A stretch of 64,000 nucleotides of DNA from an uncultured Planctomycetia bacterium (GCA_964455085.1 CAYVYJ010000008.1:1514-65513), one strand, 5' to 3'; shown: positions 13,168 through 49,484, counted from the stretch's first letter. Numbers and translations: made by a program. Notes: generated by a model from the letters alone, not told the origin.

Positions 13168-13622
13168 ATTTTTTCCTTAAAGACAATACTCCAAAAATAA
13201 TCCCAGTGCTCCTTATTAAAATAAGAAAAAGGATTGGGATAATTGTATTTAAGGTGAGATTGTATCTCTTCTTGGGTACGGTATCGCTTCACTTTCGCAG
13301 ACTCTTGTTTTTCCTCAATAGGGTCATAAATTAAATTCCAGAATTCTGCCCATTGAGACGGGGTGAATTGGCCAAATACATCTTTAGCTAAATGGATAAG
13401 CTCACTTTCTCTGCTGATAAAACTCAAAGGGCGTCTCCTTTGAGGATTAAAGGTAAAAGATGTGTCCTGTTTAAAAGATTCTACCTTTGCTTTGGTAAAT
13501 TCCCGCAAGATATTAATCTTTGATCTTAAAAAACTTAACTTCTCTGTTTTATGAAAGTTAATTATAGCTAGGGCTAGGAAAATAACTGTGGCTATTCCGA
13601 TTAAATTCTTAATATACTTCAT
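13164..13622 (-). CDS. Hypothetical membrane-anchored protein
   Basis: 152 aa. Single N-terminal TM helix followed by an aromatic-rich soluble domain. 4-nt overlaps with both leuA (upstream) and aroE (downstream). Confidence 0.5.
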   Translation of the reverse strand: MKYIKNLIGIATVIFLALAIINFHKTEKLSFLRSKINILREFTKAKVESFKQDTSFTFNPQRRRPLSFISRESELIHLAKDVFGQFTPSQWAEFWNLIYDPIEEKQESAKVKRYRTQEEIQSHLKYNYPNPFSYFNKEHWDYFWSIVFKEKI

Positions 13623-15133
13623 CTAATTCGATTTAGAGCATCCAGATAGGCTTTCGCCGAAGATTCTAAAATATCTGTGCTCGAACCCCGGCCGCTAACC
13701 GTTTTACCCTTAACAACGATTTCCACCCTTACCCGGCCTTGAGCATCTTTTCCTCTGGTAATTGCATCAAGTTTATACCCAAGAAGTTTTGTTTTTATCC
13801 CTGTAATCTTATCAATTGCTCTATAACAGGCGTCTACCGGTCCATCACCGGTAGATTTTGCTTCCCGGACCTTTCCCTTATACCTAATTTTAATTTCGGC
13901 TTGAGGCAAAGTTCCGGTCTCGGTAACTACTTTTATTGAAACCAAATCATAAACCTTAACCCTTGGCTTTACCTGTTCTTCGGCTAAGGCAATTAAATCA
14001 TCATCAAAAACTTCCTTTTTCTTATCAGCCAGTTGTTTAAACTGTTTAAAAAGTACATCTATTCTGCCTTTGCTAAAATTAAAGCCCAGTTTTCCCAACC
14101 TCCTAGCCAGAGCATGTCTTCCAGAATGCTTTCCCAAAACTATCTGGCTTTTATCCACCCCTACATCCTTAGGGTTCATTATTTCATAAGTACTTCTCTT
14201 CTTAAGTATGGCATCTTGATGAATCCCCGACTCATGAGCAAAGGCGTTTCTACCCACAATAGCTTTATTAGGAGGAACAATGAATCCAGTAAGATTGCTT
14301 ACCAGACGGGAGGTATGAACAATCTCCTTAGTCTTTATACCAGTTACCAGATTGGCAAAAACATCTTTACGAGTATTCAGGGCCATTACTATCTCCTCTA
14401 GCGATGCATTACCGGCTCTCTCACCAATGCCGTTTATTGTACAATGCACTTGGCGGACTCCAGCTAAGACTGCCGAGAGAGAATTTGCAACAGCCATGCC
14501 CAAATCATCATGGCAGTGTATAGCAATAACTGCCTTGCCGATATTGGGAACATTGTCGCGGATATCAGAGATTAAGCTGTAGATCTCTTGAGGGTAAGAG
14601 TAGCCCACTGTATCAGGAATATTTATTGTTCTTGCCCCGTAAGCTATAGCTGTCTCAATTACCCGGAAAAGAAATTCTTTCCTTGAACGAGTAGCATCTT
14701 CAGGAGAAAACTCGATATCCCCACATAGATTGCGAGCCAGTTTAGTAGCGCCTTTAGCTAAAGCTAAAATCTCATCTTCAGCTTTTTTAAATTTGTACTT
14801 AAGGTGAATTTTTGAAGTAGCTAGAAAAATGTGGATACGGGGATTCTTTGCTCTCTTTAACGAATTTTGAGCTGCCGCAATATCCTTAGGCAAACATCTT
14901 GCCAGGGCGCAGATAGTACTTCCCTTAATATTCCGGGCAATAAGATCTACAGCCTTAGAGTCATCAGGGCTAGCAATAGGAAAACCAGCTTCGATTACGT
15001 CTACCCCTAACTTGGCCAGCTGATAGGCAACCTCTAACTTCTGTTCAGAAGTCAAAGTTGCCCCCGGAGCCTGCTCCCCGTCTCTTAAGGTAGTATCAAA
15101 AATAACAATTTTTTCTTTTGCCACTTCTTGCAC
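13619..15133 (-). CDS. leuA: 2-isopropylmalate synthase
   Basis: 504 aa. IFDTTLRDGEQ substrate-binding motif, HxH metal motif (HCHDDLG) and C-terminal LeuA regulatory domain. Confidence 0.85.
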   Translation of the reverse strand: MQEVAKEKIVIFDTTLRDGEQAPGATLTSEQKLEVAYQLAKLGVDVIEAGFPIASPDDSKAVDLIARNIKGSTICALARCLPKDIAAAQNSLKRAKNPRIHIFLATSKIHLKYKFKKAEDEILALAKGATKLARNLCGDIEFSPEDATRSRKEFLFRVIETAIAYGARTINIPDTVGYSYPQEIYSLISDIRDNVPNIGKAVIAIHCHDDLGMAVANSLSAVLAGVRQVHCTINGIGERAGNASLEEIVMALNTRKDVFANLVTGIKTKEIVHTSRLVSNLTGFIVPPNKAIVGRNAFAHESGIHQDAILKKRSTYEIMNPKDVGVDKSQIVLGKHSGRHALARRLGKLGFNFSKGRIDVLFKQFKQLADKKKEVFDDDLIALAEEQVKPRVKVYDLVSIKVVTETGTLPQAEIKIRYKGKVREAKSTGDGPVDACYRAIDKITGIKTKLLGYKLDAITRGKDAQGRVRVEIVVKGKTVSGRGSSTDILESSAKAYLDALNRIR

Positions 15134-18467: not shown

Positions 18468-20039
18468 TTATTTTGGAGAGTCTTTAAGGAGTTTATACTC
18501 AACGCTATCGGATAAAGCCTGCCAAGATGCCTCAATAATATTTTCTGAAACACCAATAGTTGACCAGCTATCTTCCTTGTCCTGGGATTGAATCAAAACT
18601 CTCACCTTTGTTGCGGTCCCGCCTTTCTCATCAAGCACTCTAACCTTAAAATCAGTAAGGTGCATCCCAGAGAGTGTTGGATAAAACTTAGATAAAGCCT
18701 TTCTCAAAGCGTTGTCTAAAGCGTTGACCGGACCATCACCAAGAGAGGTTGTATGCTCTAATTTCCCGTTAATCTTCAACCTTATTATTGCCTCTGAAAC
18801 TAACTTGTTATCTTCACCTTTTTCAACAACAACTTTAAATCCCAGCAAATCAAAAAAGTTTTTATATTTCTTAAATTCTTTCTGAAGCAGCAGTTTAAAA
18901 GAACCTTCAGCAGCTTCAAACTGATATCCTTCTCTTTCTAACCTTTGGATCAGTTGATGTAAATTCTTAGCCTTATCTGACTTCTTATCTAAATCAAACT
19001 CTAGCTCTTTCGCCTTTACTACTAAAGTAGACTTACCAGCCAGTTCTGAAACAATAAGCTTCCGCTTATTCCCTACTAAAGCCGGATCAATATGCTCATA
19101 GGCCCGGGGATTTTTTATAACTGCATCAATATGTACTCCTCCTTTATGAGCAAAAGCGCTGTGACCTACAAAAGGATGATTATCGCGATGGACCATATTA
19201 GAGACTTCACTTACAAAATGCGAAAGATGGGTTAATTCAGCTAACCTTTTAGCAGATATAACCTTTTTCCCCATCTTAAGCTGCAATATGCTGATTATGG
19301 TCACTAAGTCAGCATTCCCACACCTTTCCCCGTAACCATTCATAGTCCCCTGGATCTGTATACAACCCTCATCTACACAAACTATCGAATTTGCCACTGC
19401 CAACCCTAAATCATTGTGGCAATGCACCCCAAAAGTGGCCAAAGAAAGTTTACTCTTTACCTCTTGAATTATTGTCTTAATTCCCCAAGGTAAATTTCCG
19501 CCATTGGTATCACAAAAAACAATTAGCTCAGCTCCCGACTCTTTAGCTACTCTTAAAGTCTTAAGGGCGTAACTGGGATCAGCCTTATACCCGTCAAAGA
19601 AGTGTTCAGCATCATAGAAGACACGTCTTCCTTTGCTTTTCAAGAAACTTATACTATCAGCAATAATCCTAAGATTATCATCAGGTTTTATCTTCAAAAC
19701 TTCTTTTACGTGTAAATTCCAGGTTTTACCGAAAATAGTAACACACTCAGTCTCGGAATCAAGTAGACTGATAAGATTCTGATCCTCCTTGGCCGGCTTT
19801 GAAGGATGAGCTGTAGAGCCAAAAGAGGTGAGTTTGCTATTTTTTAAAGAGTATTTCTTAAAATATTCAAAAAGCTCTTTATCCTTGGGATTAGAATAGG
19901 GCCAGCCACCCTCGATAAAATCAATGCCAAAATCATCTAACTTTTTGACGATATTGATCTTATCCTGACAGCTTAAAGAAATCCCTGGAGTTTGAGTTCC
20001 GTCCCTTAGGGTTGTATCGTAAATATATACTTTTTTCAT
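18468..20039 (-). CDS. cimA: Citramalate synthase / LeuA-family paralog
   Basis: 523 aa. IYDTTLRDGTQ and HCHNDLG motifs. C-terminal regulatory domain. A second LeuA-family member is in the same operon and the N-terminus is CimA-like. Confidence 0.7.
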   Translation of the reverse strand: MKKVYIYDTTLRDGTQTPGISLSCQDKINIVKKLDDFGIDFIEGGWPYSNPKDKELFEYFKKYSLKNSKLTSFGSTAHPSKPAKEDQNLISLLDSETECVTIFGKTWNLHVKEVLKIKPDDNLRIIADSISFLKSKGRRVFYDAEHFFDGYKADPSYALKTLRVAKESGAELIVFCDTNGGNLPWGIKTIIQEVKSKLSLATFGVHCHNDLGLAVANSIVCVDEGCIQIQGTMNGYGERCGNADLVTIISILQLKMGKKVISAKRLAELTHLSHFVSEVSNMVHRDNHPFVGHSAFAHKGGVHIDAVIKNPRAYEHIDPALVGNKRKLIVSELAGKSTLVVKAKELEFDLDKKSDKAKNLHQLIQRLEREGYQFEAAEGSFKLLLQKEFKKYKNFFDLLGFKVVVEKGEDNKLVSEAIIRLKINGKLEHTTSLGDGPVNALDNALRKALSKFYPTLSGMHLTDFKVRVLDEKGGTATKVRVLIQSQDKEDSWSTIGVSENIIEASWQALSDSVEYKLLKDSPK

Positions 20040-24299: not shown

Positions 24300-25061
24300 A
24301 TGATCAAGCAAGGAGATCTAATATTCCTCTATAACGATGAAAAAAGGAACTTCCTCCTTAAGGCCGAAGTAAAAACTCTCCACACTGACAAGGGTTTCTT
24401 AAAAATCGGCTCGCTTATCGGCAAAGAATTCGGCCAAAAAACAGAGACAAATCTAGGGTTCCCCTTCTATATCCTCCGCCCTTACCTCTATGAGCTGGTA
24501 ATGAAAGTGAGAAGAAAAACACAAATCCTTTATCCCAAAGATATTGGAATGATTCTTCTTCGGGGAAACATCTTTCCGGGAGCTAAGGTAATTGAGTCCG
24601 GCATAGGTAGCGGGGCATTAACTACGGCTTTGGCTAATTTCGTCAGGCCCAACGGCCGAGTCTATAGTTACGAACGAAATAAAGAATTTCTGGAAAATGC
24701 TAAGAAAAACTTAGAAAAAAATGGCTTAAGTGAATGGGTGGAACTCAAACATCAGGAAATTACCACTGAATTCGATGAAAAAGAAGCTGACTTTGTAATG
24801 ATTGATATTGGAAGCCCCTGGGAATTGATTGACGCTGCTTATAAATCACTAAAAGGGGGTTGCCGGCTTGCTACAATATGTCCCACCTTTGAACAACTTA
24901 CGAAAACTGTATTTAGTCTGGAAGAAAAAGGATTTGTCAATATTGAAACTATGGAAATTCTCCTGCGGAGAATTCTGGTAAGAAGAGGAAAAACCCGGCC
25001 GGAACAACGGATGCCCTGTCATACTGGCTGGTTAGTCTTCGCAACAAAAATTATTCTCTAG
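24300..25061 (+). CDS. trmI: tRNA (adenine58-N1)-methyltransferase
   Basis: 253 aa. GSGSGALT SAM-binding motif, TrmI/Gcd14 architecture. Sole + strand gene in a divergent position to apgM. Confidence 0.75.
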   Translation: MIKQGDLIFLYNDEKRNFLLKAEVKTLHTDKGFLKIGSLIGKEFGQKTETNLGFPFYILRPYLYELVMKVRRKTQILYPKDIGMILLRGNIFPGAKVIESGIGSGALTTALANFVRPNGRVYSYERNKEFLENAKKNLEKNGLSEWVELKHQEITTEFDEKEADFVMIDIGSPWELIDAAYKSLKGGCRLATICPTFEQLTKTVFSLEEKGFVNIETMEILLRRILVRRGKTRPEQRMPCHTGWLVFATKIIL

Positions 25062-25929
25062 TATCAAACTTATCTAAATCAGGCTTGGGCAAAGAATCGT
25101 AAGTAGGAATTTTCCTGCCGATAAAATAAGGGTAATCTAAAAATAGCTTTTCCCATAAACTACTTCTTTTGGGACCACAAATTCCTCTGCCAGAAGAGAG
25201 GATAAAAACTACCATCTCCTTTACTTCAGGAGAATCAATCTTCTTTAAATTTTCCAAAGCAGTTTTAAGGGGCAAGTCCTTACGGTAAAGGAAGTTATGG
25301 GCTTTTCTAATTTGACTTATCTGGTTAGCTTTAAAGCTTGCTCGCCTTAGGCCTACTGAATTGAGCCCCCAGATTCGGGAGTCTCCTACTAACAGCATAA
25401 AGGGAAGGATATCCTGGTTAACCCTGGAGAGACCTCCAACCATTGCTAACCTGCCAATCCTTACGAATTGATGGATAACTACATTTCCGGAAATAAAGAC
25501 CTTATCTTGAATTTCAACGTGACCGGCAACCAGAGTACCATTACAAATAACAATATTATTGGCTAACTTACAATCATGGGCAATATGTGAACAGGCCATA
25601 AGAAAATTACTGTCGCCTAAGAAGGTAGCCTTATCGGGAGAACTTGCGCAATTGATCGTAACATACTCCCGGATAATATTATTTTTTCCGATATAAACTT
25701 TACCCTTAGAGACTCTGGACTCTAAAACCTGGGGGGCTTCACCAATAACGCTACCGCTGCCAATAAAGGTATTATCACCAATATAAGTATTGGCCTTTAA
25801 GTGCACAAAAGCAGAAACCCTTACCCCCCGACCTAGATGAACCCCTCCTTCGATATAAGTATAAGGACCTATGCTTACCTCTTCTCCTAAAATTACATCT
25901 TTTTCGATAATTGCTTTAGGATGAATCAT
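25051..25929 (-). CDS. lpxA: Acyl-ACP--UDP-GlcNAc O-acyltransferase with about 30-aa C-terminal extension
   Basis: 292 aa. N-terminal MIHPKAIIEKDVILGEEVSIGPYTYIEG and hexapeptide LbH repeats throughout. The C-terminal helical domain is extended relative to typical 262-aa LpxA. Confidence 0.85.
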   Translation of the reverse strand: MIHPKAIIEKDVILGEEVSIGPYTYIEGGVHLGRGVRVSAFVHLKANTYIGDNTFIGSGSVIGEAPQVLESRVSKGKVYIGKNNIIREYVTINCASSPDKATFLGDSNFLMACSHIAHDCKLANNIVICNGTLVAGHVEIQDKVFISGNVVIHQFVRIGRLAMVGGLSRVNQDILPFMLLVGDSRIWGLNSVGLRRASFKANQISQIRKAHNFLYRKDLPLKTALENLKKIDSPEVKEMVVFILSSGRGICGPKRSSLWEKLFLDYPYFIGRKIPTYDSLPKPDLDKFDTRE

Positions 25930-26660
25930 TGTAAATCCCCATTTTTTAAAATAGTAACTTTACCGGCTAATGAAATGAATTCTAAACGCAAAGGAATCTT
26001 TTTTTCTTTATCTAACCAGAGATTAAATCTTCTTGCGCCTTTTCCAACCAGAAAGTAAGTATCCCGGTTTTCACCATTGGCCTTCAAGACTCTCTCCCTT
26101 ACCATCTTTATTTTTATCTTTTGAGTGGGAAGGTTAAAGCCCATCCATTTACCTGGCGTAAGCGTTAAGTCTTGAGGGAAAAAATAGAGAAGTTCCAAGA
26201 TATTATGGATTGGTTTGTCTTGGTAAATGACCCTCTCTCTATTTTTGGAATTACTTTTATTGATCCTAATATACCCGACATCTTGGTTGTAAGTTTCAGA
26301 AATCTTTTCCTTTCGGCCAAAGAAAACGATATCCCTCTCAACTCTTAGGGGAAGACCGGTTCTACTATCAAGGAAAACTTTTTCTTTCCCGGCTAAACTT
26401 AGAAGCTTAAGGATTTTTGTATTTGAATTCAGTAAAAGAATATCAGCAGTTACCCCGTTAATATCTTCTTGCCCTAAATACTCCCATTCGATATAACCAG
26501 AGGGAATTCCGTTAAAATTAACCTTATAAACCAGTTTATCCTGGTCTTTGAACCTTGCACCAATGTTTTCTCCGGAAACAAAACCGGCACCCGCTACAGT
26601 TATTGCCAAAAACATAACCCCACCAATAATAGAAGCAAAATTAAATCTCCTCATCTTCAC
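25926..26660 (-). CDS. Exported protein of unknown function
   Basis: 244 aa with signal peptide (AITVAGAGFVSG), predicted beta-rich. 4-nt overlap with lpxA start. Confidence 0.5.
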   Translation of the reverse strand: MKMRRFNFASIIGGVMFLAITVAGAGFVSGENIGARFKDQDKLVYKVNFNGIPSGYIEWEYLGQEDINGVTADILLLNSNTKILKLLSLAGKEKVFLDSRTGLPLRVERDIVFFGRKEKISETYNQDVGYIRINKSNSKNRERVIYQDKPIHNILELLYFFPQDLTLTPGKWMGFNLPTQKIKIKMVRERVLKANGENRDTYFLVGKGARRFNLWLDKEKKIPLRLEFISLAGKVTILKNGDLQ

Positions 26661-26672
26661 CTTAGGCCAATC

Positions 26673-28547
26673 TTAAAAAGAGACCAGTTTTTTGATCTCA
26701 TCTAACTTCTCTCTAGCAGCCAGCTCTCCTCTTTTAATAAATTCCGCTATCTTTTCAAATTCCATCCACCCTAACCCTTCGAGGTTAGTATGAATAACTA
26801 TATCAGCAATCTTGGCTGCCTGTTCCACAAATTGCTGCTGCATGGTTTCAATGCTTCCGAAAATAAAATCAAAAATATGAAAACGGCTACGTGTACGATT
26901 TATTCTTAAGGCTTGTTCGGACGAAAGAGATATATTAGAAGCAATTATCTTATGAGCATCATAATTTAAGAGAACCTTTGTCGGCAAGGGATTTAAGATC
27001 CCTCCATCTAGGAGAATATCCTTCTTGAAATTCACCGGTTCAAAGATACCGGGAAAAGCACAGCTAGCTGCTACAGCCTTATAAAGAAGCCCTTTGTCTA
27101 AAATTATCGATTTTCGCTTAAGAAAATCAAAGGCAACTATTTTAAGGTTGTGTTTTAAATCATAGAATGTCATGTCCTTGAAAATATTCCTAAATATACT
27201 CTCGAGCCTCTTAGCTCTCATAATCCCTCTAAAAGGGAAAGAGAAACCAGTCAGTGAGAATTTGTTAATTTTCTTCCCGAATTGATTGGAAAGTTTTTCG
27301 ATATCATCAACACTAAAACCAGCCGCCCAAAGAGCAGCAATTATTGCTCCGATACTTGAGCCACAAATAACATCTATGACTATATTATTTTGTACTAAAA
27401 CTTTTAGTACACCGATATGCGAAAACCCATAGGCAGCTCCGCTACCTAAGGCTATACCTAAGGTAACTTCACCAATTTCACGGGATATTCTTCGCAAAGT
27501 CTTAATATATTGCTGATCACTAACAGAAGGCAGAGTAGCATAAATCGGGTGATTAATCAACTTTTGCTTCTTGGCAAGTAGCAGACCTTCCTGATTAAAG
27601 CTTTCAGTAATAATAACTTTGATCTTTTCCTGATTCAAAGGGTTATGGGCCTTTAATTCCTTTAGCAGGGATGCACCCTTACTCAACTCCCTTTTTTGAG
27701 GAAAAAGAATAAAGTGTATTTGATGGGCAGATATGATAAAATCGTCAAAGTGTTTTTCTAAAAATTTATGGGGAATCTCATAAAGAATAAAGTGATAACT
27801 TTCGGAAAGAAAGTTTAGAAGGGGAAGAAAATTATCTCCAATATCAGCCCTTATGTAAAGATAAGCGACTTTACTCTTTATAATATACTTATCTAAAGAG
27901 CCCTCACTGAAAACCTTTAAAGATAAAATATTATTGCGCTTATTCGTAAGCGAGACCTCAGGAATAAAATGAGCAATTTCAGCCCCGGGAGGAATAATCT
28001 GAATACAGATAATGTCTTTTTTGGTCTGTTCCTTTAATCTTACTCCTAAATCAAACATGTAGCGAGTCTTGCCAGCTAAAGGACTCCCCATGATTCCTAT
28101 TTTTTTGGATTGGAATATCTTCTTAGGCTTAAATCGGGATTTCACTCTTTGAGATAGAATGCGTGCGAAATCCAAAGAAAGATAAGGATTCATCTTTAAA
28201 AATTCTTTAAAGGCTTTTTTCTCTGTCTGCAAAACGAGAGAAGTTTCGATTGATTTTGTAGTTACTGAATGCGGATCATCAGTGAGTAAAGAGATTATCC
28301 CGAAACAGGTGCCGCGCTTTAAGATCTCTATCTTACGATGCTTTGATCCGGATTGAGTTAAAACTGCAATTCTTCCCTTAATCAGAAAGTAGAGATAGTC
28401 TGGAAGGTCCTTTTCGTTATAAATTACCTGGTCATTTCTGTATTCTCTGACTTCAGATATACTAATTAATCTACTTATCTGATGCTTGCCTAAAGCATTG
28501 AATGGCGGGCTGTTACTAATAATTAATCTTATCTCCTTATCACTCAT
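26673..28547 (-). CDS. Cyclic-nucleotide-binding domain fused to patatin-like phospholipase (NTE-like)
   Basis: 624 aa. N-terminal CAP/cNMP-binding beta-barrel (about residues 10-135). C-terminal patatin domain with GxGxxG oxyanion region GIALGSGAAYG, GSSIG nucleophile Ser motif (GxSxG) and DGG catalytic Asp. Confidence 0.8.
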   Translation of the reverse strand: MSDKEIRLIISNSPPFNALGKHQISRLISISEVREYRNDQVIYNEKDLPDYLYFLIKGRIAVLTQSGSKHRKIEILKRGTCFGIISLLTDDPHSVTTKSIETSLVLQTEKKAFKEFLKMNPYLSLDFARILSQRVKSRFKPKKIFQSKKIGIMGSPLAGKTRYMFDLGVRLKEQTKKDIICIQIIPPGAEIAHFIPEVSLTNKRNNILSLKVFSEGSLDKYIIKSKVAYLYIRADIGDNFLPLLNFLSESYHFILYEIPHKFLEKHFDDFIISAHQIHFILFPQKRELSKGASLLKELKAHNPLNQEKIKVIITESFNQEGLLLAKKQKLINHPIYATLPSVSDQQYIKTLRRISREIGEVTLGIALGSGAAYGFSHIGVLKVLVQNNIVIDVICGSSIGAIIAALWAAGFSVDDIEKLSNQFGKKINKFSLTGFSFPFRGIMRAKRLESIFRNIFKDMTFYDLKHNLKIVAFDFLKRKSIILDKGLLYKAVAASCAFPGIFEPVNFKKDILLDGGILNPLPTKVLLNYDAHKIIASNISLSSEQALRINRTRSRFHIFDFIFGSIETMQQQFVEQAAKIADIVIHTNLEGLGWMEFEKIAEFIKRGELAAREKLDEIKKLVSF

Positions 28548-28551
28548 AAAA

Positions 28552-29763
28552 CTAGATTTCCAATCTATTTTCTTTAATTATCGTACTATAAGTAGCGGAA
28601 AAAGGCTTAGGAGTACGTTTAAAAGTCTTGTAGTCAACTCCGGCTAAGCCGAAACAGGGACCAAATCCCTTATCCCACTCGAAATTATCGATTAGAGACC
28701 ACCAAAGATAGCCTCTTATATCTACCCCTTCATTTATTGCTGCCGCTAAACTCCTCAAGTGTCTAATTAGAAAATCTTCATAAAGGGAATTTTCATATTC
28801 AGCAGTTCCGTTTTCGGTAATTATTATCGGCAAATTATATCTGGCTATTTTTTTAAGCAATCGGTAAAACCCTTGAGGATAAATATTCCAGCCAAGATAA
28901 TTTTTTCTTCCCCTCTTCGGTTTATAATCTGATTCTGCGCCGAATAAATCTTTAAACTTAGAGAACTCGCGACAGTAGTAATTTATAGCCAGGAAGTCTA
29001 AAGCATTCCGTTTGGTCAAGTAGTCAAGGAGCCAAAAATTAAAGTAACGGCTACGCAAACTGGCGCTTAAGGAGTTTAACCATAAGTTAAGGCCCGGGTG
29101 AGGCGAAAATACTCTTAAGCTCTTAGCTATGGAGACCTGTGCTGGAAGCGCACTTCCCTGATATATTCTCTTTAGTTCCTGATAGCCAGTGAGGTAAGCG
29201 GCTATAATATTATTCAAGACTCGCTTAGCCTGCTTAAACGACTTCACCCCTGGCGGCCAAATACCCCTAACAAAACTATTATAGATATAAACCAGAGGTT
29301 CGTTAAAAATAACCCAAAACTCTACCTTTTCTCTTAAAGCCTCTACTGTTTTGATTAAAAAATTTAAGAAATAATCAACATTTTTGGCTTCCAACCACCC
29401 CCCTCTTTTAACAAACCAAAGCGGATTGGTGAAGTGATGAAGAGTAATTATTGGTTTTAACTTATATTTAATCAAAGTATCCACTACTTCTTTGTAATGT
29501 GCAAGCTCCTGCTGCGAAAAATAAGAAGCATCGGGGTGGATTCTTGACCACTCCAGAGATATTCTTAAACTATTTAGATTAAAGCTGCTGGCGAGTTGGA
29601 AATCTTTTTTAAAAAGGCGATAGTGGTGACAAGCAGACCCCGCGACTCCCAATCCCTTTTCTTTTTCCCAAAGATACCAGTCACAATTAAAGTTTTCTCC
29701 TTCACATTGGTAACTGGAAAGAGCGGCTCCCCACAAAAAAGAAGAAGGAAATTGTATCTGCAT
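28552..29763 (-). CDS. GH1 family beta-glucosidase
   Basis: 403 aa. N-terminal FLWGAALSSYQCEG and catalytic nucleophile ITENG motif (TENG). NEP acid/base region present. Confidence 0.85.
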   Translation of the reverse strand: MQIQFPSSFLWGAALSSYQCEGENFNCDWYLWEKEKGLGVAGSACHHYRLFKKDFQLASSFNLNSLRISLEWSRIHPDASYFSQQELAHYKEVVDTLIKYKLKPIITLHHFTNPLWFVKRGGWLEAKNVDYFLNFLIKTVEALREKVEFWVIFNEPLVYIYNSFVRGIWPPGVKSFKQAKRVLNNIIAAYLTGYQELKRIYQGSALPAQVSIAKSLRVFSPHPGLNLWLNSLSASLRSRYFNFWLLDYLTKRNALDFLAINYYCREFSKFKDLFGAESDYKPKRGRKNYLGWNIYPQGFYRLLKKIARYNLPIIITENGTAEYENSLYEDFLIRHLRSLAAAINEGVDIRGYLWWSLIDNFEWDKGFGPCFGLAGVDYKTFKRTPKPFSATYSTIIKENRLEI

Positions 29764-29854: not shown

Positions 29855-30250
29855 TTAACCAGAAATTATCTGTAAAGCTTTGTCATTATTATCGGAGGAA
29901 AACACAATGGTCGCTGAGGTGCCCGGTTCATAAGTTGTCCCATGTATGGCGCAAAGGTTAATATTATTATCTTTTAGCTTAGAAGCAAGAAAATGAAGTT
30001 GCCCTATCTTATCAGCCATCTCAACAATTATTACTTCTTTCTCATCCACACTTCCCTTACTCAGGAGTATTTCTTTTACCTTTAAGTTATCAGAGGTTAT
30101 CAATTTAAAGAATGCCTTACCAGAATCAGCCCAGGCTGCTATTGACCTGATGTTAATCCCACTATTCTTAATTGCACCAGTTACATCTTCCAACAAACCT
30201 ACTTTGTCTTCTCCGATGAAAAGAATCTCTTTTGCCTTTACCGCCTTCAT
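29855..30250 (-). CDS. Tandem ACT-domain protein
   Basis: 131 aa, two about 65-aa ACT-like ligand-binding repeats (GEDKVGLLEDVTGAIKNSGINI; EMADKIGQLHFLASKL). Confidence 0.6.
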   Translation of the reverse strand: MKAVKAKEILFIGEDKVGLLEDVTGAIKNSGINIRSIAAWADSGKAFFKLITSDNLKVKEILLSKGSVDEKEVIIVEMADKIGQLHFLASKLKDNNINLCAIHGTTYEPGTSATIVFSSDNNDKALQIISG

Positions 30251-42112: not shown

Positions 42113-43264
42113 TTATCCGTAAAATTTTAAATGAGCCAGCAAAGAATTTATACCACATATAAGAAGGAAGCCAATATAGAATATATTAAGCCCCAGGTAT
42201 AAAGGCTTAATTTTCCTAAAAGAACCAATAGCTTTTATAATGAAATAAAAAACAAAAGGTGCAAAAAATAGGGTTATTCTCTCGCCGGTAAAAGGGTATT
42301 TCTTCAATAGCCCTAAAACAATTAGTTCCAGAAAGATAACCATACCGATTGTATCGATACTCATAATCCTAAATTTATCCTTTCGGATAGATTTAATACC
42401 GCACCTAAACAGTGAGATTATAAAGAAGGGGATAAAAACAGACGCAGTTCTCCTGAAGAAAGTGCTATTACCAAACCACCAGACTGTTAACTTCCGTAAC
42501 CCTTCTCCGAATGACTTAAAGAAATAATAAAAGGATTTAGTGGATATGAAATAATCGTCCCAATACATGAAAAGATCCCTGATGAGGAGATCGTGTCTTA
42601 AATCGAACCAATAAGCAAAAATTATAACTGCAAAAGAAATAGCTGTGTAACCTAAAATTAAGGGTAAGATTTTACGATTTTTCCTAACCCAAGATAAAAA
42701 ATTGTAAACAACAATCCAAAAGACAAAAAAGCTACCATACGATAAAAGAAGTGTAAAAGGCAATAGCAACGTTATGATGATAAAAGGCTTCGAGGGTTGG
42801 CTATTTACAAACCGCCTCTGATGAATAAAATAAAGACAAAAGATTCCCACAACTAAAACATCAAGTGAATAGGGCTTTAACTCTGCCGCATAATAACTGA
42901 AGGCGTAACTGTTAGCAAAAGAAAATAAAACCAGCAGAAATTGCCATTTATTAGATAGTGACCCCTTGTATAATTTTTTCCAAATAAAAAACGCACCAAG
43001 CATACTTATTAACGAAAAAAATCTTAAAGAAAGAATGCTATAGTTAAACATTTTAGAAAAAATCTTAATTATAATAAGATAGACTCTGGGAAACACCTGG
43101 CAGTGTTCAAGAGGCCCGAGGAGCTGAGCGGCCTTAAAGGTTTCTATATTTTTAAAAACAGAATCTTCATCAACCCAAAGAGGTCTTGCCGAGAAATAGT
43201 GCACAAAACAGAGAAAAATAAACCAGATTATACAAAAAATGAGTAAAATTCTATACTTTCCCAT
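42113..43264 (-). CDS. GT-C fold membrane glycosyltransferase (ArnT/GT83-like)
   Basis: 383 aa, about 10 TM helices. First periplasmic loop has RPLWVDEDSVF, matching the RxLWxxDE motif of ArnT-type polyprenyl-P-sugar transferases. Confidence 0.6.
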   Translation of the reverse strand: MGKYRILLIFCIIWFIFLCFVHYFSARPLWVDEDSVFKNIETFKAAQLLGPLEHCQVFPRVYLIIIKIFSKMFNYSILSLRFFSLISMLGAFFIWKKLYKGSLSNKWQFLLVLFSFANSYAFSYYAAELKPYSLDVLVVGIFCLYFIHQRRFVNSQPSKPFIIITLLLPFTLLLSYGSFFVFWIVVYNFLSWVRKNRKILPLILGYTAISFAVIIFAYWFDLRHDLLIRDLFMYWDDYFISTKSFYYFFKSFGEGLRKLTVWWFGNSTFFRRTASVFIPFFIISLFRCGIKSIRKDKFRIMSIDTIGMVIFLELIVLGLLKKYPFTGERITLFFAPFVFYFIIKAIGSFRKIKPLYLGLNIFYIGFLLICGINSLLAHLKFYG

Positions 43265-46723: not shown

Positions 46724-47439
46724 CCTCTCCTCCCTCTAAAAGAAAACAAATTTAGAAAATTTTTCATAACTACCCAAGAATACAACTTTATATAGACCGG
46801 AATTAGTTTCATCATCTTAAAACTGGATTCACCTTCCTGTCGGGAATTCCAGACTGTAGGTATTTCAGTAATCTTGAATCCTTTAAGGTAGGCTTTAAGT
46901 GGAATTTCCATGGAAATCTCAAAACTTTCAGCCTCCAAATCAATCGCCTCAATGATCTCTCGCTTATACATCTTAAATGAATTAGTAATATCATGAGTTG
47001 GTACTCCTAAAATATAAATGATTCGTCCGGCTAAGCTAGATAAAAAAGTCTTAACTGACGGTCCACCTATTTTTTGGCCACCCCGCATATAGCGAGAACC
47101 ACAGACAATATCATAACCCTGATTGATTTTTTGATACATCTTATTAATTAAGACAGGATCATCACATAAATCAGCCATAACCGAAACAATCAACTCACCC
47201 CTTGCAGCTTTAAAACCAGTTAGCAGTGTATTAGCAAAACCTCTAGGTTCATTATTATCGACTAAGATGATATTTTTATAACGCTTCCTTAATTCTTCTA
47301 CTATCACCCTGGTATTATCGCTGGAATGATCATTAACTACTACAACCTCATAATCTACGGTTAAAGCATCGATAAGGCGAATGATCACCTCTCTGATGCT
47401 CTTCTCCTCATTGTGTGCCGGAATAACTACAGATACCAT
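46720..47439 (-). CDS. GT2 polyprenyl-phosphate sugar synthase (Dpm1-like)
   Basis: 239 aa. VSVVIPAHNE...NDHSSDNT...DLCDDP motifs. Immediately downstream of and abutting a large GT-C-like membrane protein. Confidence 0.75.
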   Translation of the reverse strand: MVSVVIPAHNEEKSIREVIIRLIDALTVDYEVVVVNDHSSDNTRVIVEELRKRYKNIILVDNNEPRGFANTLLTGFKAARGELIVSVMADLCDDPVLINKMYQKINQGYDIVCGSRYMRGGQKIGGPSVKTFLSSLAGRIIYILGVPTHDITNSFKMYKREIIEAIDLEAESFEISMEIPLKAYLKGFKITEIPTVWNSRQEGESSFKMMKLIPVYIKLYSWVVMKNFLNLFSFRGRRG

Positions 47440-49484
47440 TATTTAATTACCTTATAAATTCGAGCATCAGGGTTATTCAAAACTAATTGGAATTTATCAG
47501 AATGTACCTGGGCCCAAAGACCTTCTACCGGTGTATACCTCTCTTCAAGTATATAAACAAAGAGATAATCTGTATTCTCTCCAACCAGATTTCGATACCA
47601 GCGGTTAAAATCAGCTTTACCGCGATAGTTCTCACTTCTCCTTAATACTCTATCAATATGATCATAGCGATATTCTTTCCAATTTAGATTGCCTTGAGGA
47701 TAAAGGTGGAGTTGGGCTGGATGAATATTATTTACTGATACGTAGTAGACATCATTTTTCAAACCTGTCCCGTATAAAGGAAAGGGAACCGGCCGGCCGG
47801 TATAAGCAATTCTTTGGGCTTTAGTGTTATCATTCAACCACTGCCAAGCCTTCATTGCTCCTTCCCAATAAGGAGCGTGACTGAGGTAACGCTGATACTC
47901 ATGATTAAGATACCACTGCTGGCCAATAACAAGACTTAAACTAAGAATAATGAATAACGAAGAAGTCATAGTTACCCTGACTTTTCGCCTTTTAAAACGC
48001 TTGATAAATAGTGGTAAGATAAGAAAAAACGAAACCGTCGCCAGTAAAGAAAATCCTAACTCCCAATATCCGCAGAATTCCGCTATTGAAGTCAGAAAAC
48101 AGATAACCACTAGTGCCCGTATTGCTTTTGAGGGAACTTTTAAAGTCTTTAAGAGATAGGTGGCCATAACCGAGCCGACAGCAAGATAAGGATAGAGAAA
48201 TCTGGTCCAGAGCTGAGGGATAATAAAAGTAAAAATAGCGAAAAGAATGGCCGGAAGCAGGGATAAATAAACTAAGGGAAAACTTAATTTTATTCCCTTA
48301 CTTCTAATTAGAATTATCGGAAAGGCTAAAAAGGTAGCAGGAAATATCAAAATCAGCAGCTGTAGTCCCATACCTTCATGGAAGAACAATTTTCCTAAAT
48401 TATAACCTTCATAGGTCCAACGGACCAGATAGGTAGCGGTGGGCATCACCCCTTTAAAAACAGTTTTTCCCATTAAAACCGCCTTTAAAGGAAATAAGGG
48501 GTTACCGCTAAGAATAAAATTTCTTATATAGCCATAACCGCCAAACAAGGCAATAAGCCCCAGGAACAAAGAGCCATAGCCAACCAATCTTAAACCTTTA
48601 GAGTTTTTAACTAGGATATAAATGAAAAATAATCCTAAAGCTAAACTATAGGCTAAGCTTAAAGTCTTAGTCCCAAAAAATAGCCCAAAGGATATCCCGG
48701 AAATAATTAAGTACCTTAGATTAAACTTCCTATTTAAACTAAATAGAAGATTTAAAGTAGTGAGCAAAAGTGCAGTCATCATAATGTCGGCATAACCAAC
48801 CTCAATCTGTTTAAAAAAGTTAGGAGTAATTACAAACAGACCGGCTGAATAAAATGCCAGCTCCCGAGAAAGGTTGAACTTTCTGGCAATTGCAAAGCAA
48901 GCTATAAAGGAAAGTATAAGAAATGGTATCTGGCCCAAATCAGCGATAAGAACATTCTTAAAAGGGGCGATTAACCAAAAATAATAAAGACAATTATTTA
49001 TCGGATAATAGGTCGGTGTGGGATCATCAGAGATAGTAGGGGGGTTATAGAGATTACCTTGCTTTAGCCACTCAACCGGAAAGGTAAAGTGATAATTAAG
49101 GCTATCCCAGCCAAAAGGAGGGTTTATAAGGTTAAAAATTCCCTTTACTAAAATAAAACCTAAGATACAGGCCAGACAGAATAAAATCACCTTATTTTCA
49201 GTTATCCAACTAAAATCCCTTCTGCCTGCTGCGTATAAAATTTCGTTTTTATTTCGTAAGATAAAACTGACTACTAAGAAGATAAAAAAGTTTACTAAGA
49301 TCAGATTACCCAAGAAAAGCTTACCAAAGATACCTAAAATCATCTCAGTAAGTATGATCTGGGCCAGAAACAGAAGCGAAAAATTACATATCCGATCAGA
49401 AAGGTTGGGACAATAGAAAGCTTTTCTTACGATACGGGCAGAAGTAAAAGCAACAATGAGATTAAGAATAAGGAAATTAATCAT
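47439..49484 (-). CDS. Large polytopic membrane protein, putative GT-C-fold glycosyltransferase
   Basis: 681 aa. At least 12 TM helices in N-terminal 500 aa (loop with GWDSLNYH), C-terminal about 170-aa soluble aromatic-rich domain. Abuts the downstream Dpm1-like GT2 gene (stop at 47439 adjoins its start). Confidence 0.5.
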   Translation of the reverse strand: MINFLILNLIVAFTSARIVRKAFYCPNLSDRICNFSLLFLAQIILTEMILGIFGKLFLGNLILVNFFIFLVVSFILRNKNEILYAAGRRDFSWITENKVILFCLACILGFILVKGIFNLINPPFGWDSLNYHFTFPVEWLKQGNLYNPPTISDDPTPTYYPINNCLYYFWLIAPFKNVLIADLGQIPFLILSFIACFAIARKFNLSRELAFYSAGLFVITPNFFKQIEVGYADIMMTALLLTTLNLLFSLNRKFNLRYLIISGISFGLFFGTKTLSLAYSLALGLFFIYILVKNSKGLRLVGYGSLFLGLIALFGGYGYIRNFILSGNPLFPLKAVLMGKTVFKGVMPTATYLVRWTYEGYNLGKLFFHEGMGLQLLILIFPATFLAFPIILIRSKGIKLSFPLVYLSLLPAILFAIFTFIIPQLWTRFLYPYLAVGSVMATYLLKTLKVPSKAIRALVVICFLTSIAEFCGYWELGFSLLATVSFFLILPLFIKRFKRRKVRVTMTSSLFIILSLSLVIGQQWYLNHEYQRYLSHAPYWEGAMKAWQWLNDNTKAQRIAYTGRPVPFPLYGTGLKNDVYYVSVNNIHPAQLHLYPQGNLNWKEYRYDHIDRVLRRSENYRGKADFNRWYRNLVGENTDYLFVYILEERYTPVEGLWAQVHSDKFQLVLNNPDARIYKVIK

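What the first reader, a model, noticed from the sequence alone, without database searches (positions are those of the whole stretch)
26673..28547. cNMP-binding domain fused to a patatin-like phospholipase (NTE-like second-messenger-gated lipase)
The N-terminal CAP-type cyclic-nucleotide-binding beta-barrel is followed by an about 200-aa linker. Then comes a patatin domain with intact GxGxxG, GxSxG (GSSIG) and DGG catalytic motifs. Patatin phospholipases are used as nucleotide-activated effectors in CBASS (CapV), and neuropathy-target-esterase has cNMP domains fused to patatin. A single-chain sensor-effector of this kind in a small genome suggests cyclic-nucleotide-controlled membrane lipid hydrolysis (signalling, defence or lysis). 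No nucleotide cyclase is encoded adjacent, so the activating ligand is unknown.
Basis: partly seen in the sequence, partly recalled or inferred. Interest (0 to 1): 0.55.

Follow-up and report, generated by a model that had tools for sequence, protein, structure and literature searches.

The report
Three-domain regulated patatin lipase of Omnitrophota

Summary
The ORF at 26673-28547 (minus strand, 624 aa) is real. It carries a cNMP_binding domain (Pfam E 6e-17) and a patatin domain (E 2e-32) with intact GSGAAYG, GSSIG and DGG motifs. Three points change the picture.

1. The "200-aa linker" is a folded ParA/MinD-class P-loop NTPase domain. It has a Walker A motif (GSPLAGKT), and its model matches ParA, FlhG, MinD and NifH structures.
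2. The sensor's phosphate-binding cassette reads FG-I-ISLL..P-H-SVT. The ribose-contacting Glu is hydrophobic and the phosphate-contacting Arg is His in 83/83 orthologues. Canonical cAMP/cGMP gating is therefore doubtful.
3. The protein is a core gene of Candidatus Omnitrophota, with relatives in 333 species-representative genomes. A catalytically intact GH1 glycosidase lies directly upstream in 64/83 loci, and an exported small protein follows.

The neighbourhood is housekeeping. None of 50 scanned window ORFs is a cyclase or CD-NTase.

Best reading: a cytoplasmic lipid acyl-hydrolase for membrane-lipid or glycolipid turnover. Two regulatory modules probably gate it: a CNB-fold sensor with an unknown, probably non-cNMP ligand, and an ATP-dependent ParA-like switch.

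This is a new variant of the known CNB-patatin (NTE-like) theme, not CBASS- or Pycsar-like defence. Interest is moderate.

The parts
26673..28547 (-). Whole gene: 624-aa three-domain protein (CNB fold, ParA/MinD-like P-loop, patatin), including the stop codon at 26673-26675
   Evidence: ORF list. Pfam hits. AF2 model with pLDDT 81.4 and pTM 0.79. More than 290 full-length homologues.
28137..28547 (-). N-terminal CNB-fold (CAP/PKA-type) sensor domain, residues 1-137
   Evidence: PF00027 E 5.7e-17. Foldseek hits to CRP, GlxR, PKA and PKG CNB domains, rmsd 1.6-2.8 A.
28260..28304 (-). Non-canonical phosphate-binding cassette FGIISLLTDDPHSVT (residues 82-96): Ile84 replaces the canonical Glu and His93 replaces the canonical Arg
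   Evidence: Residue-by-residue alignment to Plasmodium PKA-R (FGELALL..(K/P)RAAT). Conservation is 53/53 and 83/83. Translation check.
27462..28136 (-).
   Evidence: AF2 model of the domain alone has pLDDT 84.5. Foldseek top hits are ParA-family 3ea0 (E 1.4e-8), FlhG 4rz2, MinD 4v02 and NifH, TM about 0.6. The domain profile hits 3ea0 at E 1.4e-3. Relatives pass Pfam AAA_31.
28065..28088 (-). Walker A motif GSPLAGKT (residues 154-161)
   Evidence: Sequence and translation. G159, K160 and T/S161 are conserved in about 48/53 close orthologues. The Lys is present in 68/83 across the phylum and is Arg in 12.
27777..27791 (-). Walker B-like strand FILYE (residues 253-257). The acidic residue is Glu in this clade and Asp in most of the family.
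   Evidence: Asp 76/83, Glu 7/83.
26676..27461 (-). C-terminal patatin-like acyl-hydrolase domain, residues 363-624 (RssA/PlpD/NTE-type)
   Evidence: PF01734 E 1.9e-32. PlpD 5fqu by sequence, E 6.7e-21. PlpD 5fya by structure, TM 0.83. Best NCBIfam model is RssA.
27426..27446 (-). Glycine-rich oxyanion-hole motif GSGAAYG (residues 368-374). Tyr occupies the place of the Arg found in PlpD (GGAARG).
   Evidence: Alignment to PlpD. Tyr in 67/83 orthologues and never Arg in the listed counts.
27348..27362 (-). Nucleophile elbow GSSIG with catalytic Ser398
   Evidence: Ser invariant in 83/83.
27000..27008 (-). DGG motif with catalytic Asp514
   Evidence: Asp invariant in 83/83.
28552..29763 (-). 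Conserved upstream operon partner: 403-aa cytoplasmic GH1 glycosidase, whose stop lies 4 nt before the target's ATG
   Evidence: PF00232 E 2.8e-70. Directly upstream on the same strand in 64/83 loci, mostly with a gap of -4 to +11 nt. NEP and ENG catalytic Glu invariant in 59/59. Junction sequence.
25926..26660 (-). Downstream partner: 244-aa exported DUF3108-like protein with an N-terminal signal or anchor. In the larger clade a ~155-aa lipoprotein takes its place.
   Evidence: PF11306 E 6.7e-5, below the cut-off. Conserved in the window's clade in L001-L005. N-terminal hydrophobic segments.
29855..30250 (-). First gene of the probable transcription unit: 131-aa ACT-domain-pair protein
   Evidence: Pfam ACT/ACT_8. 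Conserved upstream of GH1 in L001-L005. The best promoter-like site of the region lies at 30329-30301 on the minus strand (a consensus match only).
25051..25929 (-). LpxA (UDP-GlcNAc acyltransferase), overlapping the DUF3108-like gene by 4 nt. Its linkage to the target varies in other genomes.
   Evidence: Hexapep plus Acetyltransf_11. Near the target in L001 and L050 only.

Best explanation
The gene encodes a cytoplasmic, phylum-specific (Candidatus Omnitrophota) three-module lipid acyl-hydrolase.

Module 1, shown by sequence and model: a patatin domain of the RssA/PlpD/NTE type with an intact Ser398-Asp514 dyad. I infer that it deacylates a membrane lipid.

Module 2, fold shown and function inferred: a ParA/MinD-class P-loop domain with a classical Walker A motif. 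I infer that it binds ATP and acts as a nucleotide-dependent dimerisation or oligomerisation switch, possibly also a membrane-association switch, that positions or activates the lipase. The family lacks the 'signature' lysine of deviant Walker A motifs, and parts of the family have lost the Walker A lysine. Binding is therefore more likely to be its role than fast hydrolysis.

Module 3, fold shown and ligand unknown: a CNB-fold sensor. Its C-helix runs into the P-loop domain. Its binding cassette has invariantly replaced the two canonical cNMP contacts (Glu to Ile, Arg to His). I infer that it senses something other than cAMP or cGMP, or binds them only weakly.

The gene is co-transcribed with a catalytically intact cytoplasmic GH1 glycosidase upstream and an exported small protein downstream. 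The most likely role is housekeeping turnover or remodelling of membrane lipids, plausibly glycolipids, with GH1 removing the sugar head-group and patatin the acyl chains. This would be analogous to the lipid-homeostasis role of NTE. It is not a defence or suicide effector.
For: - Domains and motifs.
- Patatin fold closest to PlpD (TM 0.83). Best NCBIfam model is RssA.
- The middle domain is a confident alpha/beta fold matching ParA-family 3ea0, FlhG, MinD and NifH. Its profile hits 3ea0. Relatives pass the AAA_31/ParA/CbiA Pfam models, and many have these domains precomputed.
- Walker A GK[T/S] is kept in about 90% of close orthologues and the Lys in 68/83 phylum-wide.
- The PBC reads G-(I/M/L)-I-S..H-S in 53/53 and 83/83. 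The role of the invariant PBC Arg in neutralising and binding the cyclic phosphate is described in PMC2275311 and PMC10959531. CNB domains that have replaced this Arg bind other ligands: trypanosomatid PKA-R binds nucleosides (PMC10959531).
- Core-gene behaviour: relatives in 333 GTDB species representatives, and the best 80 are all Omnitrophota MAGs or SAGs. All source names are Omnitrophica/Omnitrophota, apart from one MAG labelled Aenigmatarchaeota.
- Synteny: GH1 directly upstream in 64/83 loci with gaps mostly -4 to +11 nt, and an exported small protein downstream in 58/77. GH1 catalytic glutamates are 59/59.
- Surroundings are housekeeping: ilv/leu genes, lysC, cstA, apgM, trmI, lpxA, uvrD, pgsA, pgpA, rodZ, ftsK.
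- No signal peptide or transmembrane segment.
Against: - Nothing has been tested biochemically. Substrate, ATP binding, oligomerisation and the CNB ligand are all inferred.
- A PBC that is invariant in 83/83 argues that the pocket is functional. His plus the retained Ser94 could still bind a phosphate, so weak or unusual nucleotide binding is not excluded.
- Part of the distant clade retains the PBC Glu ('FGE..PHS').
- In this window's clade the Walker B acidic residue is Glu, not Asp. Pfam finds no P-loop family in the window's own middle domain, so that domain is divergent and could be a pseudo-ATPase.
- The glycolipid idea rests only on gene adjacency.
- I did not measure how completely the gene covers all Omnitrophota genomes.
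Confidence: 0.55

Rival explanations
1. One reading: a cyclic-nucleotide (cAMP/cGMP) gated lipase. A cyclase encoded elsewhere in the genome makes the signal, the CNB domain binds it, and the patatin domain is released to hydrolyse membrane lipid (signalling or lysis).
For: - There is a genuine CNB fold with a strong Pfam score and structural matches to cAMP- and cGMP-binding domains.
- The PBC is under strong constraint: its Gly, Ser and His positions are invariant.
- In Drosophila SWS/NTE, mutating the CNB sites abolishes lipase function, and two of its three CNBs also lack the Arg (PMC12710771).
- His and Ser could in principle contact a phosphate.
Against: - Both hallmark contacts are missing in every orthologue (Glu replaced by Ile/Met/Leu, Arg replaced by His). 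The Arg is described as invariant and charge-neutralising in cNMP binders.
- No cyclase was found in 50 ORFs of the 64-kb window, nor as a recurrent neighbour in 85 loci.
Confidence: 0.2
2. An anti-phage or abortive-infection effector of the CBASS or Pycsar kind. A cyclic (oligo)nucleotide made on infection activates the patatin domain to destroy the membrane.
For: - PADLOC gives domain-level hits to phospholipase effectors (E 7e-15) and to the CNB part of PycTIR (E 4e-7).
- NCBIfam gives weak hits to the CBASS lipase and to an anti-phage phospholipase.
- The structure resembles CapE.
Against: - The scores are far below the family cut-offs: CBASS_lipase 40.7 against 200, DS2_1 43.9 against 400.
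- No CD-NTase or Pycsar cyclase is adjacent, either here or in 85 related loci.
- The gene is vertically conserved with stable synteny at 28-75% identity across a phylum. That is the opposite of the patchy, island-borne distribution of defence systems.
- CBASS lipases sense their ligand without a CNB domain (my own knowledge).
Confidence: 0.04
3. A largely structural or scaffolding protein. Both regulatory modules are degenerate (a pseudo-CNB and a pseudo-ATPase) and serve only as dimerisation or docking surfaces, for example for GH1 or for the membrane. The patatin domain would then be a constitutive housekeeping esterase without ligand control.
For: - The canonical PBC residues are lost.
- The Walker A Lys is replaced in 15/83 orthologues and in many members of the distant clade.
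- There is no signature lysine.
- The window's middle domain matches no Pfam P-loop model.
- Precedent (my own knowledge): the CNB-homology domains of KCNH channels bind no nucleotide.
Against: - The replaced PBC positions are themselves invariant (His 83/83, Ser 83/83, Ile 80/83). This points to a specific function rather than decay.
- Walker A GK[T/S] and an acidic Walker B residue are kept in the large majority.
Confidence: 0.18

Closest known systems
Neuropathy target esterase / PNPLA6 / Drosophila Swiss-cheese / yeast Nte1
   Same: CNB-fold domain(s) lie N-terminal to a patatin esterase in one chain. The role is housekeeping membrane-lipid homeostasis, not defence. Several of the NTE/SWS CNB sites also lack the PBC arginine, yet the CNB sites are needed for catalysis (PMC12710771). 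JGI annotates the homologues as 'NTE family protein'.
   Different: NTE has an N-terminal transmembrane segment and three CNB domains and is a eukaryotic ER membrane protein. It has no ParA/MinD-like P-loop domain. This protein has one CNB and no transmembrane segment, and it sits in a bacterial operon with GH1.
Mycobacterial CNB-patatin proteins Rv2565 and Rv3728
   Same: They are bacterial single-chain fusions of a cNMP-binding-type domain with a patatin/NTE-like esterase. A review lists them as esterases tied to cyclic-nucleotide signalling (PMC10865251).
   Different: No actinobacterial-type protein was identifiable among the 125 relatives of the P-loop domain, and every hit that carried a source name was Omnitrophota. 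The inserted ParA-like domain therefore appears absent from them. I did not test this directly on their sequences.
RssA (YchK) and PlpD patatin domains
   Same: These are the closest patatin relatives by sequence (RssA NCBIfam E 3e-30; PlpD 5fqu E 6.7e-21) and by structure (5fya, TM 0.83). They share the Ser-Asp dyad and the motif order.
   Different: RssA is a stand-alone domain, and PlpD is a secreted type Vd autotransporter with POTRA and beta-barrel parts. The score against RssA is 105 bits against a 272-bit equivalog cut-off. The Arg of PlpD's GGAARG motif is Tyr here.
ParA/MinD/FlhG/TadZ(CpaE) family of SIMIBI P-loop ATPases
   Same: The middle domain has the same fold, a Walker A motif and an acidic Walker B residue. 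The most distant sequence relatives are receiver-domain plus ParA-like proteins and a ParA-like plus T2SSE protein. Like TadZ/CpaE, a small N-terminal regulatory domain precedes the ATPase.
   Different: There is no 'signature' lysine of the deviant Walker A motif (KGGxxGK[ST]). The domain is embedded between two other domains rather than free-standing. It is very divergent, at 10-17% identity to solved structures. Its partner is a lipase, not a DNA, division or secretion apparatus.
CBASS patatin effectors (CapV, CapE) and Pycsar CNB-fused effectors
   Same: A patatin hydrolase (CBASS) or a CNB sensor fused to an effector (Pycsar) is controlled by a nucleotide second messenger. CapE shows structural similarity.
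   Different: There is no adjacent cyclase. The scores are well below the family cut-offs. The gene is a conserved core gene with housekeeping synteny. The PBC is non-canonical.
Trypanosomatid PKA regulatory subunits (nucleoside-binding CNB domains)
   Same: They set a precedent for CNB domains whose PBC arginine is replaced and which have switched to a different ligand (PMC10959531).
   Different: They keep the PBC glutamate and add a second one to bind the ribose. Here the glutamate is hydrophobic, so a nucleoside ligand is not implied either.

Membership tests
Patatin-like phospholipase (PF01734) | Profile score above the Pfam gathering threshold | tested here: met
   113.5 bits against 27.7, E 1.9e-32, profile positions 2-190 of 191.
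Patatin-like phospholipase (PF01734) | Glycine-rich oxyanion motif GxGxxG | tested here: met
   GSGAAYG at residues 368-374. G370 is invariant. The Arg/Lys often found before the last Gly is Tyr here.
Patatin-like phospholipase (PF01734) | GxSxG nucleophile and D-G-[GA] catalytic Asp (Ser-Asp dyad) | tested here: met
   GSSIG with Ser398 and DGG with Asp514. Both are 83/83 in orthologues.
Patatin-like phospholipase (PF01734) | Patatin fold | tested here: met
   The AF2 model matches PlpD 5fya (E 3.7e-16, TM 0.83), CapE and potato patatin.
Patatin-like phospholipase (PF01734) | Lipid acyl-hydrolase activity | not testable with these tools
   Needs an enzyme assay.
Cyclic-nucleotide-binding domain (PF00027, CAP/PKA type) | Profile score above threshold and the beta-barrel-plus-helices fold | tested here: met
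   61.9 bits against 27.5. Foldseek hits to CRP, GlxR, PKA, PKG and HCN CNB domains, rmsd 1.6-2.8 A.
Cyclic-nucleotide-binding domain (PF00027, CAP/PKA type) | PBC glutamate (the G-E motif) that binds the ribose 2'-OH | tested here: not met
   Ile84 aligns with the Glu of PKA-R. It is Ile/Met/Leu in 53/53 and 83/83. Glu is present only in part of the distant clade.
Cyclic-nucleotide-binding domain (PF00027, CAP/PKA type) | Invariant PBC arginine that binds the cyclic phosphate | tested here: not met
   His93 aligns with the Arg. It is His in 53/53 and 83/83, and in about 90% or more of the 46-sequence wide alignment. The role of the Arg is described in PMC2275311 and PMC10959531.
Cyclic-nucleotide-binding domain (PF00027, CAP/PKA type) | Actual binding of cAMP or cGMP | not testable with these tools
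   Needs ITC, DSF or a co-crystal.
ParA/MinD (SIMIBI) P-loop ATPases | SIMIBI alpha/beta fold | tested here: met
   The domain model (pLDDT 84.5) hits ParA-family 3ea0, FlhG, MinD, NifH and HypB, TM 0.5-0.63.
ParA/MinD (SIMIBI) P-loop ATPases | Walker A GxxxxGK[ST] | tested here: met
   GSPLAGKT at residues 154-161. Lys in 48/53 and 68/83.
ParA/MinD (SIMIBI) P-loop ATPases | 'Signature' lysine of the deviant Walker A (KGGxxGK[ST]) | tested here: not met
   The position is Ser, Phe, Pro or Ala in the close clade and mostly Ser in the phylum-wide set of 83, never a conserved Lys. A few distant members have a K-G-x-G-K motif.
ParA/MinD (SIMIBI) P-loop ATPases | Walker B hhhhD | tested here: inconclusive
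   The window has FILYE, with Glu. The family has Asp in 76/83 and Glu in 7/83.
ParA/MinD (SIMIBI) P-loop ATPases | Sequence-profile membership (AAA_31, CbiA or ParA above threshold) | tested here: inconclusive
   The window's own domain has no Pfam hit. Relatives P0132 and P0138 pass AAA_31 at 30.8 and 31.9 bits against 27. The family profile hits ParA-family 3ea0 at E 1.4e-3.
CBASS (CapV/CapE-type phospholipase effector) | Membership in the CBASS lipase family model | tested here: not met
   NF041079 scores 40.7 bits against a 200 cut-off.
CBASS (CapV/CapE-type phospholipase effector) | Adjacent CD-NTase gene | tested here: not met
   None within the window, and none as a recurrent neighbour in 85 loci.
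Pycsar (CNB-fused effector plus pyrimidine cyclase) | Adjacent cyclase gene and a patchy, defence-island distribution | tested here: not met
   No cyclase is present. The gene is conserved across a phylum with stable housekeeping synteny.
NTE / PNPLA6 family | CNB domain(s) N-terminal to a patatin esterase in one polypeptide | tested here: met
NTE / PNPLA6 family | N-terminal transmembrane anchor and three CNB domains | tested here: not met
   There is one CNB hit only. There is no TM-like segment; the highest hydropathy window is the catalytic core.
RssA (YchK) equivalog, NF007623 | Score above the equivalog cut-off | tested here: not met
   105.5 bits against 272. Only the patatin part (residues 361-539) matches.

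The most novel reading that the evidence does not exclude
This is a phylum-specific three-module switch of a kind not described before. A CNB-fold sensor has been re-tooled for a non-nucleotide ligand; its hydrophobic, His-containing cassette might bind a lipid, a fatty acid or a sugar-derived product of the pathway. A ParA/MinD-type ATP-dependent dimerisation module works with it to gate a patatin acyl-hydrolase. The hydrolase acts together with its co-translated GH1 glycosidase on membrane glycolipids, either the cell's own or those taken from a host or prey by these ultra-small bacteria.
Probability: 0.2. Interest if true: 0.65.

Novelty: new variant of a known kind. Interest (0 to 1): 0.42.

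Why it matters
CNB-patatin fusions (NTE/PNPLA6 and the mycobacterial Rv2565) are known, but how the CNB domains control the lipase is still unresolved, even for the human disease gene.

This family offers a compact, soluble bacterial version. It has one CNB-fold domain whose pocket has clearly been repurposed, and an inserted ParA/MinD-type ATP module that has not been described next to a patatin domain. I found no paper holding the terms together.

The gene is conserved across Omnitrophota, a large uncultured phylum of very small cells, and is locked to a GH1 glycosidase. It is therefore probably part of a core lipid or glycolipid pathway of that phylum.

It is also a practical warning for annotation. 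'cNMP-binding plus patatin' should not be read as cyclic-nucleotide-gated or CBASS-like without checking the binding cassette and the gene context.

Tried and rejected
- **CBASS/Pycsar reading:** rejected on family cut-offs, the absence of a cyclase, and phylum-wide synteny.
- **'Linker' reading:** rejected after AF2 and Foldseek.
- **Genome scan:** the first attempt with a 17-sequence alignment failed because no stretch was conserved enough. It was repeated with 4 sequences.
- **Cluster look-up of distant relatives:** returned no names or organisms. Taxonomy came from the genome scan and a second homologue search.
- **Whole-model Foldseek:** showed only the patatin and CNB domains. The middle domain had to be modelled on its own.
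- **Pfam on the window's middle domain alone:** no hit.
- **Terminator scan of the operon:** no more sites than in shuffled sequence, and only one strong promoter-like site.
- **Literature searches** for the fusion, for Omnitrophota plus patatin, and for Rv2565: nothing on this architecture.
- **Cyclase content of a whole Omnitrophota genome:** not testable here, because only loci could be fetched.
Full report
**Observation.** Pfam finds cNMP_binding at residues 34-118 (E 5.7e-17, 61.9 bits against a 27.5 cut-off) and Patatin at residues 366-526 (E 1.9e-32, 113.5 bits against 27.7). The three patatin motifs were verified by translation: GSGAAYG (nt 27426-27446), GSSIG (27348-27362) and DGG (27000-27008).

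**The 'linker' is a third domain.** The 225 residues between the two domains contain a classical Walker A motif, GSPLAGKT (residues 154-161), and a Walker-B-like strand, FILYE (253-257). AlphaFold2 with a 53-sequence alignment gives a confident whole-protein model (pLDDT 81.4, pTM 0.79), in which residues ~148-358 form a regular alpha/beta domain. Modelled alone (pLDDT 84.5), this domain's best PDB matches are a ParA-family ATPase (3ea0, E 1.4e-8), FlhG, MinD, the nitrogenase Fe protein, HypB and dethiobiotin synthetase, with TM about 0.5-0.63. That is the SIMIBI ParA/MinD class. A sequence profile of the domain hits the same ParA-family entry at E 1.4e-3. More distant relatives of the whole protein pass the Pfam AAA_31 threshold, with weaker ParA and CbiA hits, and many homologues carry these domains in precomputed annotation. 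The window's own copy is too divergent for any Pfam P-loop model.

**How the P-loop domain is distributed.** An exhaustive profile search of 1.84 billion representative proteins finds only 125 relatives of this domain. Most are 600-715 aa proteins with the domain at the same position, residues ~140-390. The weakest hits examined are receiver-domain plus ParA-like proteins and a ParA-like plus T2SSE protein. The family lacks the signature lysine of deviant Walker A motifs. The Walker A lysine is kept in 48/53 close orthologues and 68/83 phylum-wide (Arg in 12). The Walker B acidic residue is Asp in 76/83 and Glu in 7/83, including this window. In the most distant clade the lysine is often lost.

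**The sensor domain is a CNB fold without the canonical cNMP contacts.** The HMMER alignment to Plasmodium PKA-R places FG-I-ISLLTDDP-H-SVT against FG-E-LALL..(K/P)-R-AAT. The glutamate that binds the ribose 2'-OH is Ile84, and the arginine that binds the cyclic phosphate is His93. This is not a quirk of one sequence. In 53 orthologues at 47-75% identity the first position is Ile, Met or Leu (53/53) and the second is His (53/53). In 83 species-level orthologues taken from genome loci, Ile is 80/83, His 83/83 and the following Ser 83/83.

In a wider 46-sequence alignment reaching down to 26% identity, the His and Ser are at least 90% conserved, and some distant members regain the Glu but never the Arg. 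The arginine is described as invariant in cNMP-binding CNB domains, where it neutralises and hydrogen-bonds the phosphate (PMC2275311, PMC10959531). Trypanosomatid PKA regulatory subunits, which have replaced it, bind nucleosides instead of cAMP (PMC10959531).

Because the substituted residues are themselves invariant, I read the pocket as functional but repurposed, not decayed. The ligand is unknown.

**The patatin domain is intact and of the RssA/PlpD/NTE type.** The best sequence matches are the RssA model (E 3e-30, but 105 bits against a 272-bit equivalog cut-off) and PlpD (5fqu, E 6.7e-21). The best structural match is PlpD 5fya (TM 0.83 on the target), followed by CapE and potato patatin. 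Ser398 and Asp514 are invariant in 83/83. One difference may bear on substrate choice. The Arg of PlpD's GGAARG oxyanion motif is Tyr here (Tyr in 67/83, and Arg absent from the counts listed). There is no signal peptide or transmembrane segment, so the enzyme is cytoplasmic or peripherally membrane-bound.

**Distribution and context.** The first homologue search returns 292 proteins. The best 120 are nearly all full length, 559-635 aa and 48-75% identical. All that carry a source name are Candidatus Omnitrophica/Omnitrophota, apart from one MAG labelled Aenigmatarchaeota. A scan of one genome per GTDB species found 333 genomes encoding a relative. The best 80 are all Omnitrophota MAGs or SAGs, some labelled 'uncultured Planctomycetia/-ales' by the depositor. 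A second homologue search seeded with a 28%-identical member again returns only Omnitrophota names.

I called ORFs in 85 related loci plus the window and clustered the neighbours. A GH1 glycosidase is the immediately upstream gene on the same strand in 64 of 83 loci, and the intergenic distance is mostly -4 to +11 nt. In the window, the GH1 stop is 4 nt before the target's ATG. The GH1 acid/base (NEP) and nucleophile (ENG) glutamates are invariant in 59/59. Downstream lies an exported small protein: a ~155-aa protein with a lipobox-like motif in 35/52 members (52/77 loci), or, in the window's clade, a DUF3108-like protein with an N-terminal signal (6 loci). In the window's clade an ACT-pair gene precedes GH1.

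In the window, five tightly packed minus-strand genes (ACT, GH1, target, DUF3108-like, LpxA) follow the best promoter-like site of the region (a consensus match only). Everything within 12 kb on either side is housekeeping: ilvBHC, leuA, lysC, cstA, apgM, trmI, lpxA, uvrD, cinA, ligT, pgpA, pgsA, a MiaB-like gene, rodZ and ftsK. No nucleotide cyclase or CD-NTase domain occurs in any of the 50 ORFs scanned across the 64-kb window, and none appears as a recurrent neighbour elsewhere. Nucleotide independence itself remains untested.

**Mechanism.** What is shown:
- The architecture has three domains.
- The Ser-Asp dyad is intact.
- A Walker A/B P-loop domain of ParA/MinD fold is present.
- The PBC lacks the canonical contacts.
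- The gene forms a phylum-wide operon with GH1.

What I infer:
- The patatin domain deacylates a membrane lipid.
- The ParA-like domain binds ATP and works as a dimerisation or membrane-association switch, as its family does. Without the signature lysine it is probably a slow hydrolyser or a pure binder.
- The CNB-fold domain, whose C-helix leads directly into the P-loop domain, transmits the binding of an unknown, probably non-cNMP ligand.
- The pairing with an active cytoplasmic GH1 suggests glycolipid turnover: sugar removal plus deacylation, or coordinated carbon and lipid salvage.

ATP-modulated patatin enzymes have a precedent in iPLA2-beta, and oligomerisation-activated ones in CapE filaments (one search lists those structures). 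These parallels come from my own knowledge and from entry titles, not from tests. I put about 0.55 on this overall reading. The architecture and the 'not defence' part are much more secure than the ATP-switch and glycolipid parts.

**Rivals.**
- Canonical cNMP gating (0.2). The fold and the constrained pocket keep it alive, as does the SWS/NTE result that CNB sites lacking the Arg still matter (PMC12710771). The two missing contacts and the absence of any cyclase in the available context weaken it.
- CBASS/Pycsar-type defence effector (0.04). Family cut-offs, context and distribution contradict it.
- Constitutive esterase with degenerate pseudo-sensor and pseudo-ATPase modules (0.18). It fits the lost Lys in parts of the family, but it does not fit the invariance of the substituted PBC residues.

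**Comparison and novelty.** The theme of a CNB fold plus patatin is known from NTE/PNPLA6/SWS and from the mycobacterial Rv2565 and Rv3728 (PMC10865251), and databases already name these proteins 'patatin-like phospholipase family' or 'NTE family protein'. New here are the inserted ParA/MinD-class domain, the family-wide G-I..H-S cassette, the restriction to Omnitrophota and the fixed GH1 partnership. I found no paper describing any of this. I therefore class it as a new variant of a known kind. Interest is moderate: it is not the second-messenger-gated weapon that was proposed, but it is a clean and tractable case of a repurposed CNB sensor and an unexpected ATP module on a lipase, in a poorly known phylum.

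Noticed in passing
window 41382-63691 (minus strand): A long surface-glycan or LPS-type gene cluster: seven GT2, two GT4, a GT9 heptosyltransferase-like gene, a Wzy_C O-antigen-ligase-like gene, UDP-glucose dehydrogenase, an epimerase, a carbamoyltransferase, a B12-binding radical SAM enzyme, a SAM methyltransferase and an ATP-grasp enzyme. Two large ORFs inside it have no Pfam hit at E<=1e-5: 42113-43264 (383 aa) and 47439-49484 (681 aa).
   Followed up: no
L001 10584-11606 (-) and L002 10828-11850 (-): A 340-aa ParA/MinD-type ATPase carrying an AMPK1_CBM (glycogen-binding) domain sits two genes from the target in two related Omnitrophota genomes. In L002 it lies near a GH57 glycogen-type gene cluster. 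The fusion is unusual, and it is absent from the window.
   Followed up: no
window 28552-29763 (-), and GH1 genes in 64 related loci: The GH1 partner is short for its family (about 400-410 aa) and has no signal peptide. Both catalytic glutamates are invariant (59/59). Its fixed position directly upstream of the lipase across a phylum is unexplained.
   Followed up: partly
L046 and L054 (both from MAG JAKLQX01): One MAG carries two copies of the GH1-plus-target pair. They share no blastn-detectable DNA similarity. This is either true paralogy or a mixed bin.
   Followed up: partly
distant 680-710 aa clade (e.g. P0138, P0150, P0164; L006-L017): In this clade the Walker A lysine is frequently Arg, Ser or another residue, while the Walker B Asp is kept. 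Some members regain the PBC glutamate ('FGE..PHS') but never the arginine. The clade represented by L006-L013 also lacks the GH1 neighbour; four of those eight loci have thiolase-like and 3-hydroxyacyl-CoA-dehydrogenase-like genes downstream instead, as judged from the sequences by eye.
   Followed up: partly
window 13619-15133 (-) and 18468-20039 (-): Two LeuA-type (HMGL-like plus LeuA_dimer) synthases flank the ilvBHC genes. They are probably isopropylmalate synthase and a citramalate- or homocitrate-type paralogue.
   Followed up: no
window 4705-6162 (+) and 52957-54366 (-): Two B12-binding radical SAM enzymes. A further radical SAM protein at 2223-3356 lies next to a GT2 and a PMT_2-type glycosyltransferase.
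   Followed up: no
window 25051-25061: The 3' ends of lpxA (minus strand) and trmI (plus strand) overlap convergently by 11 nt, which shows how tightly the genome is packed.
   Followed up: no
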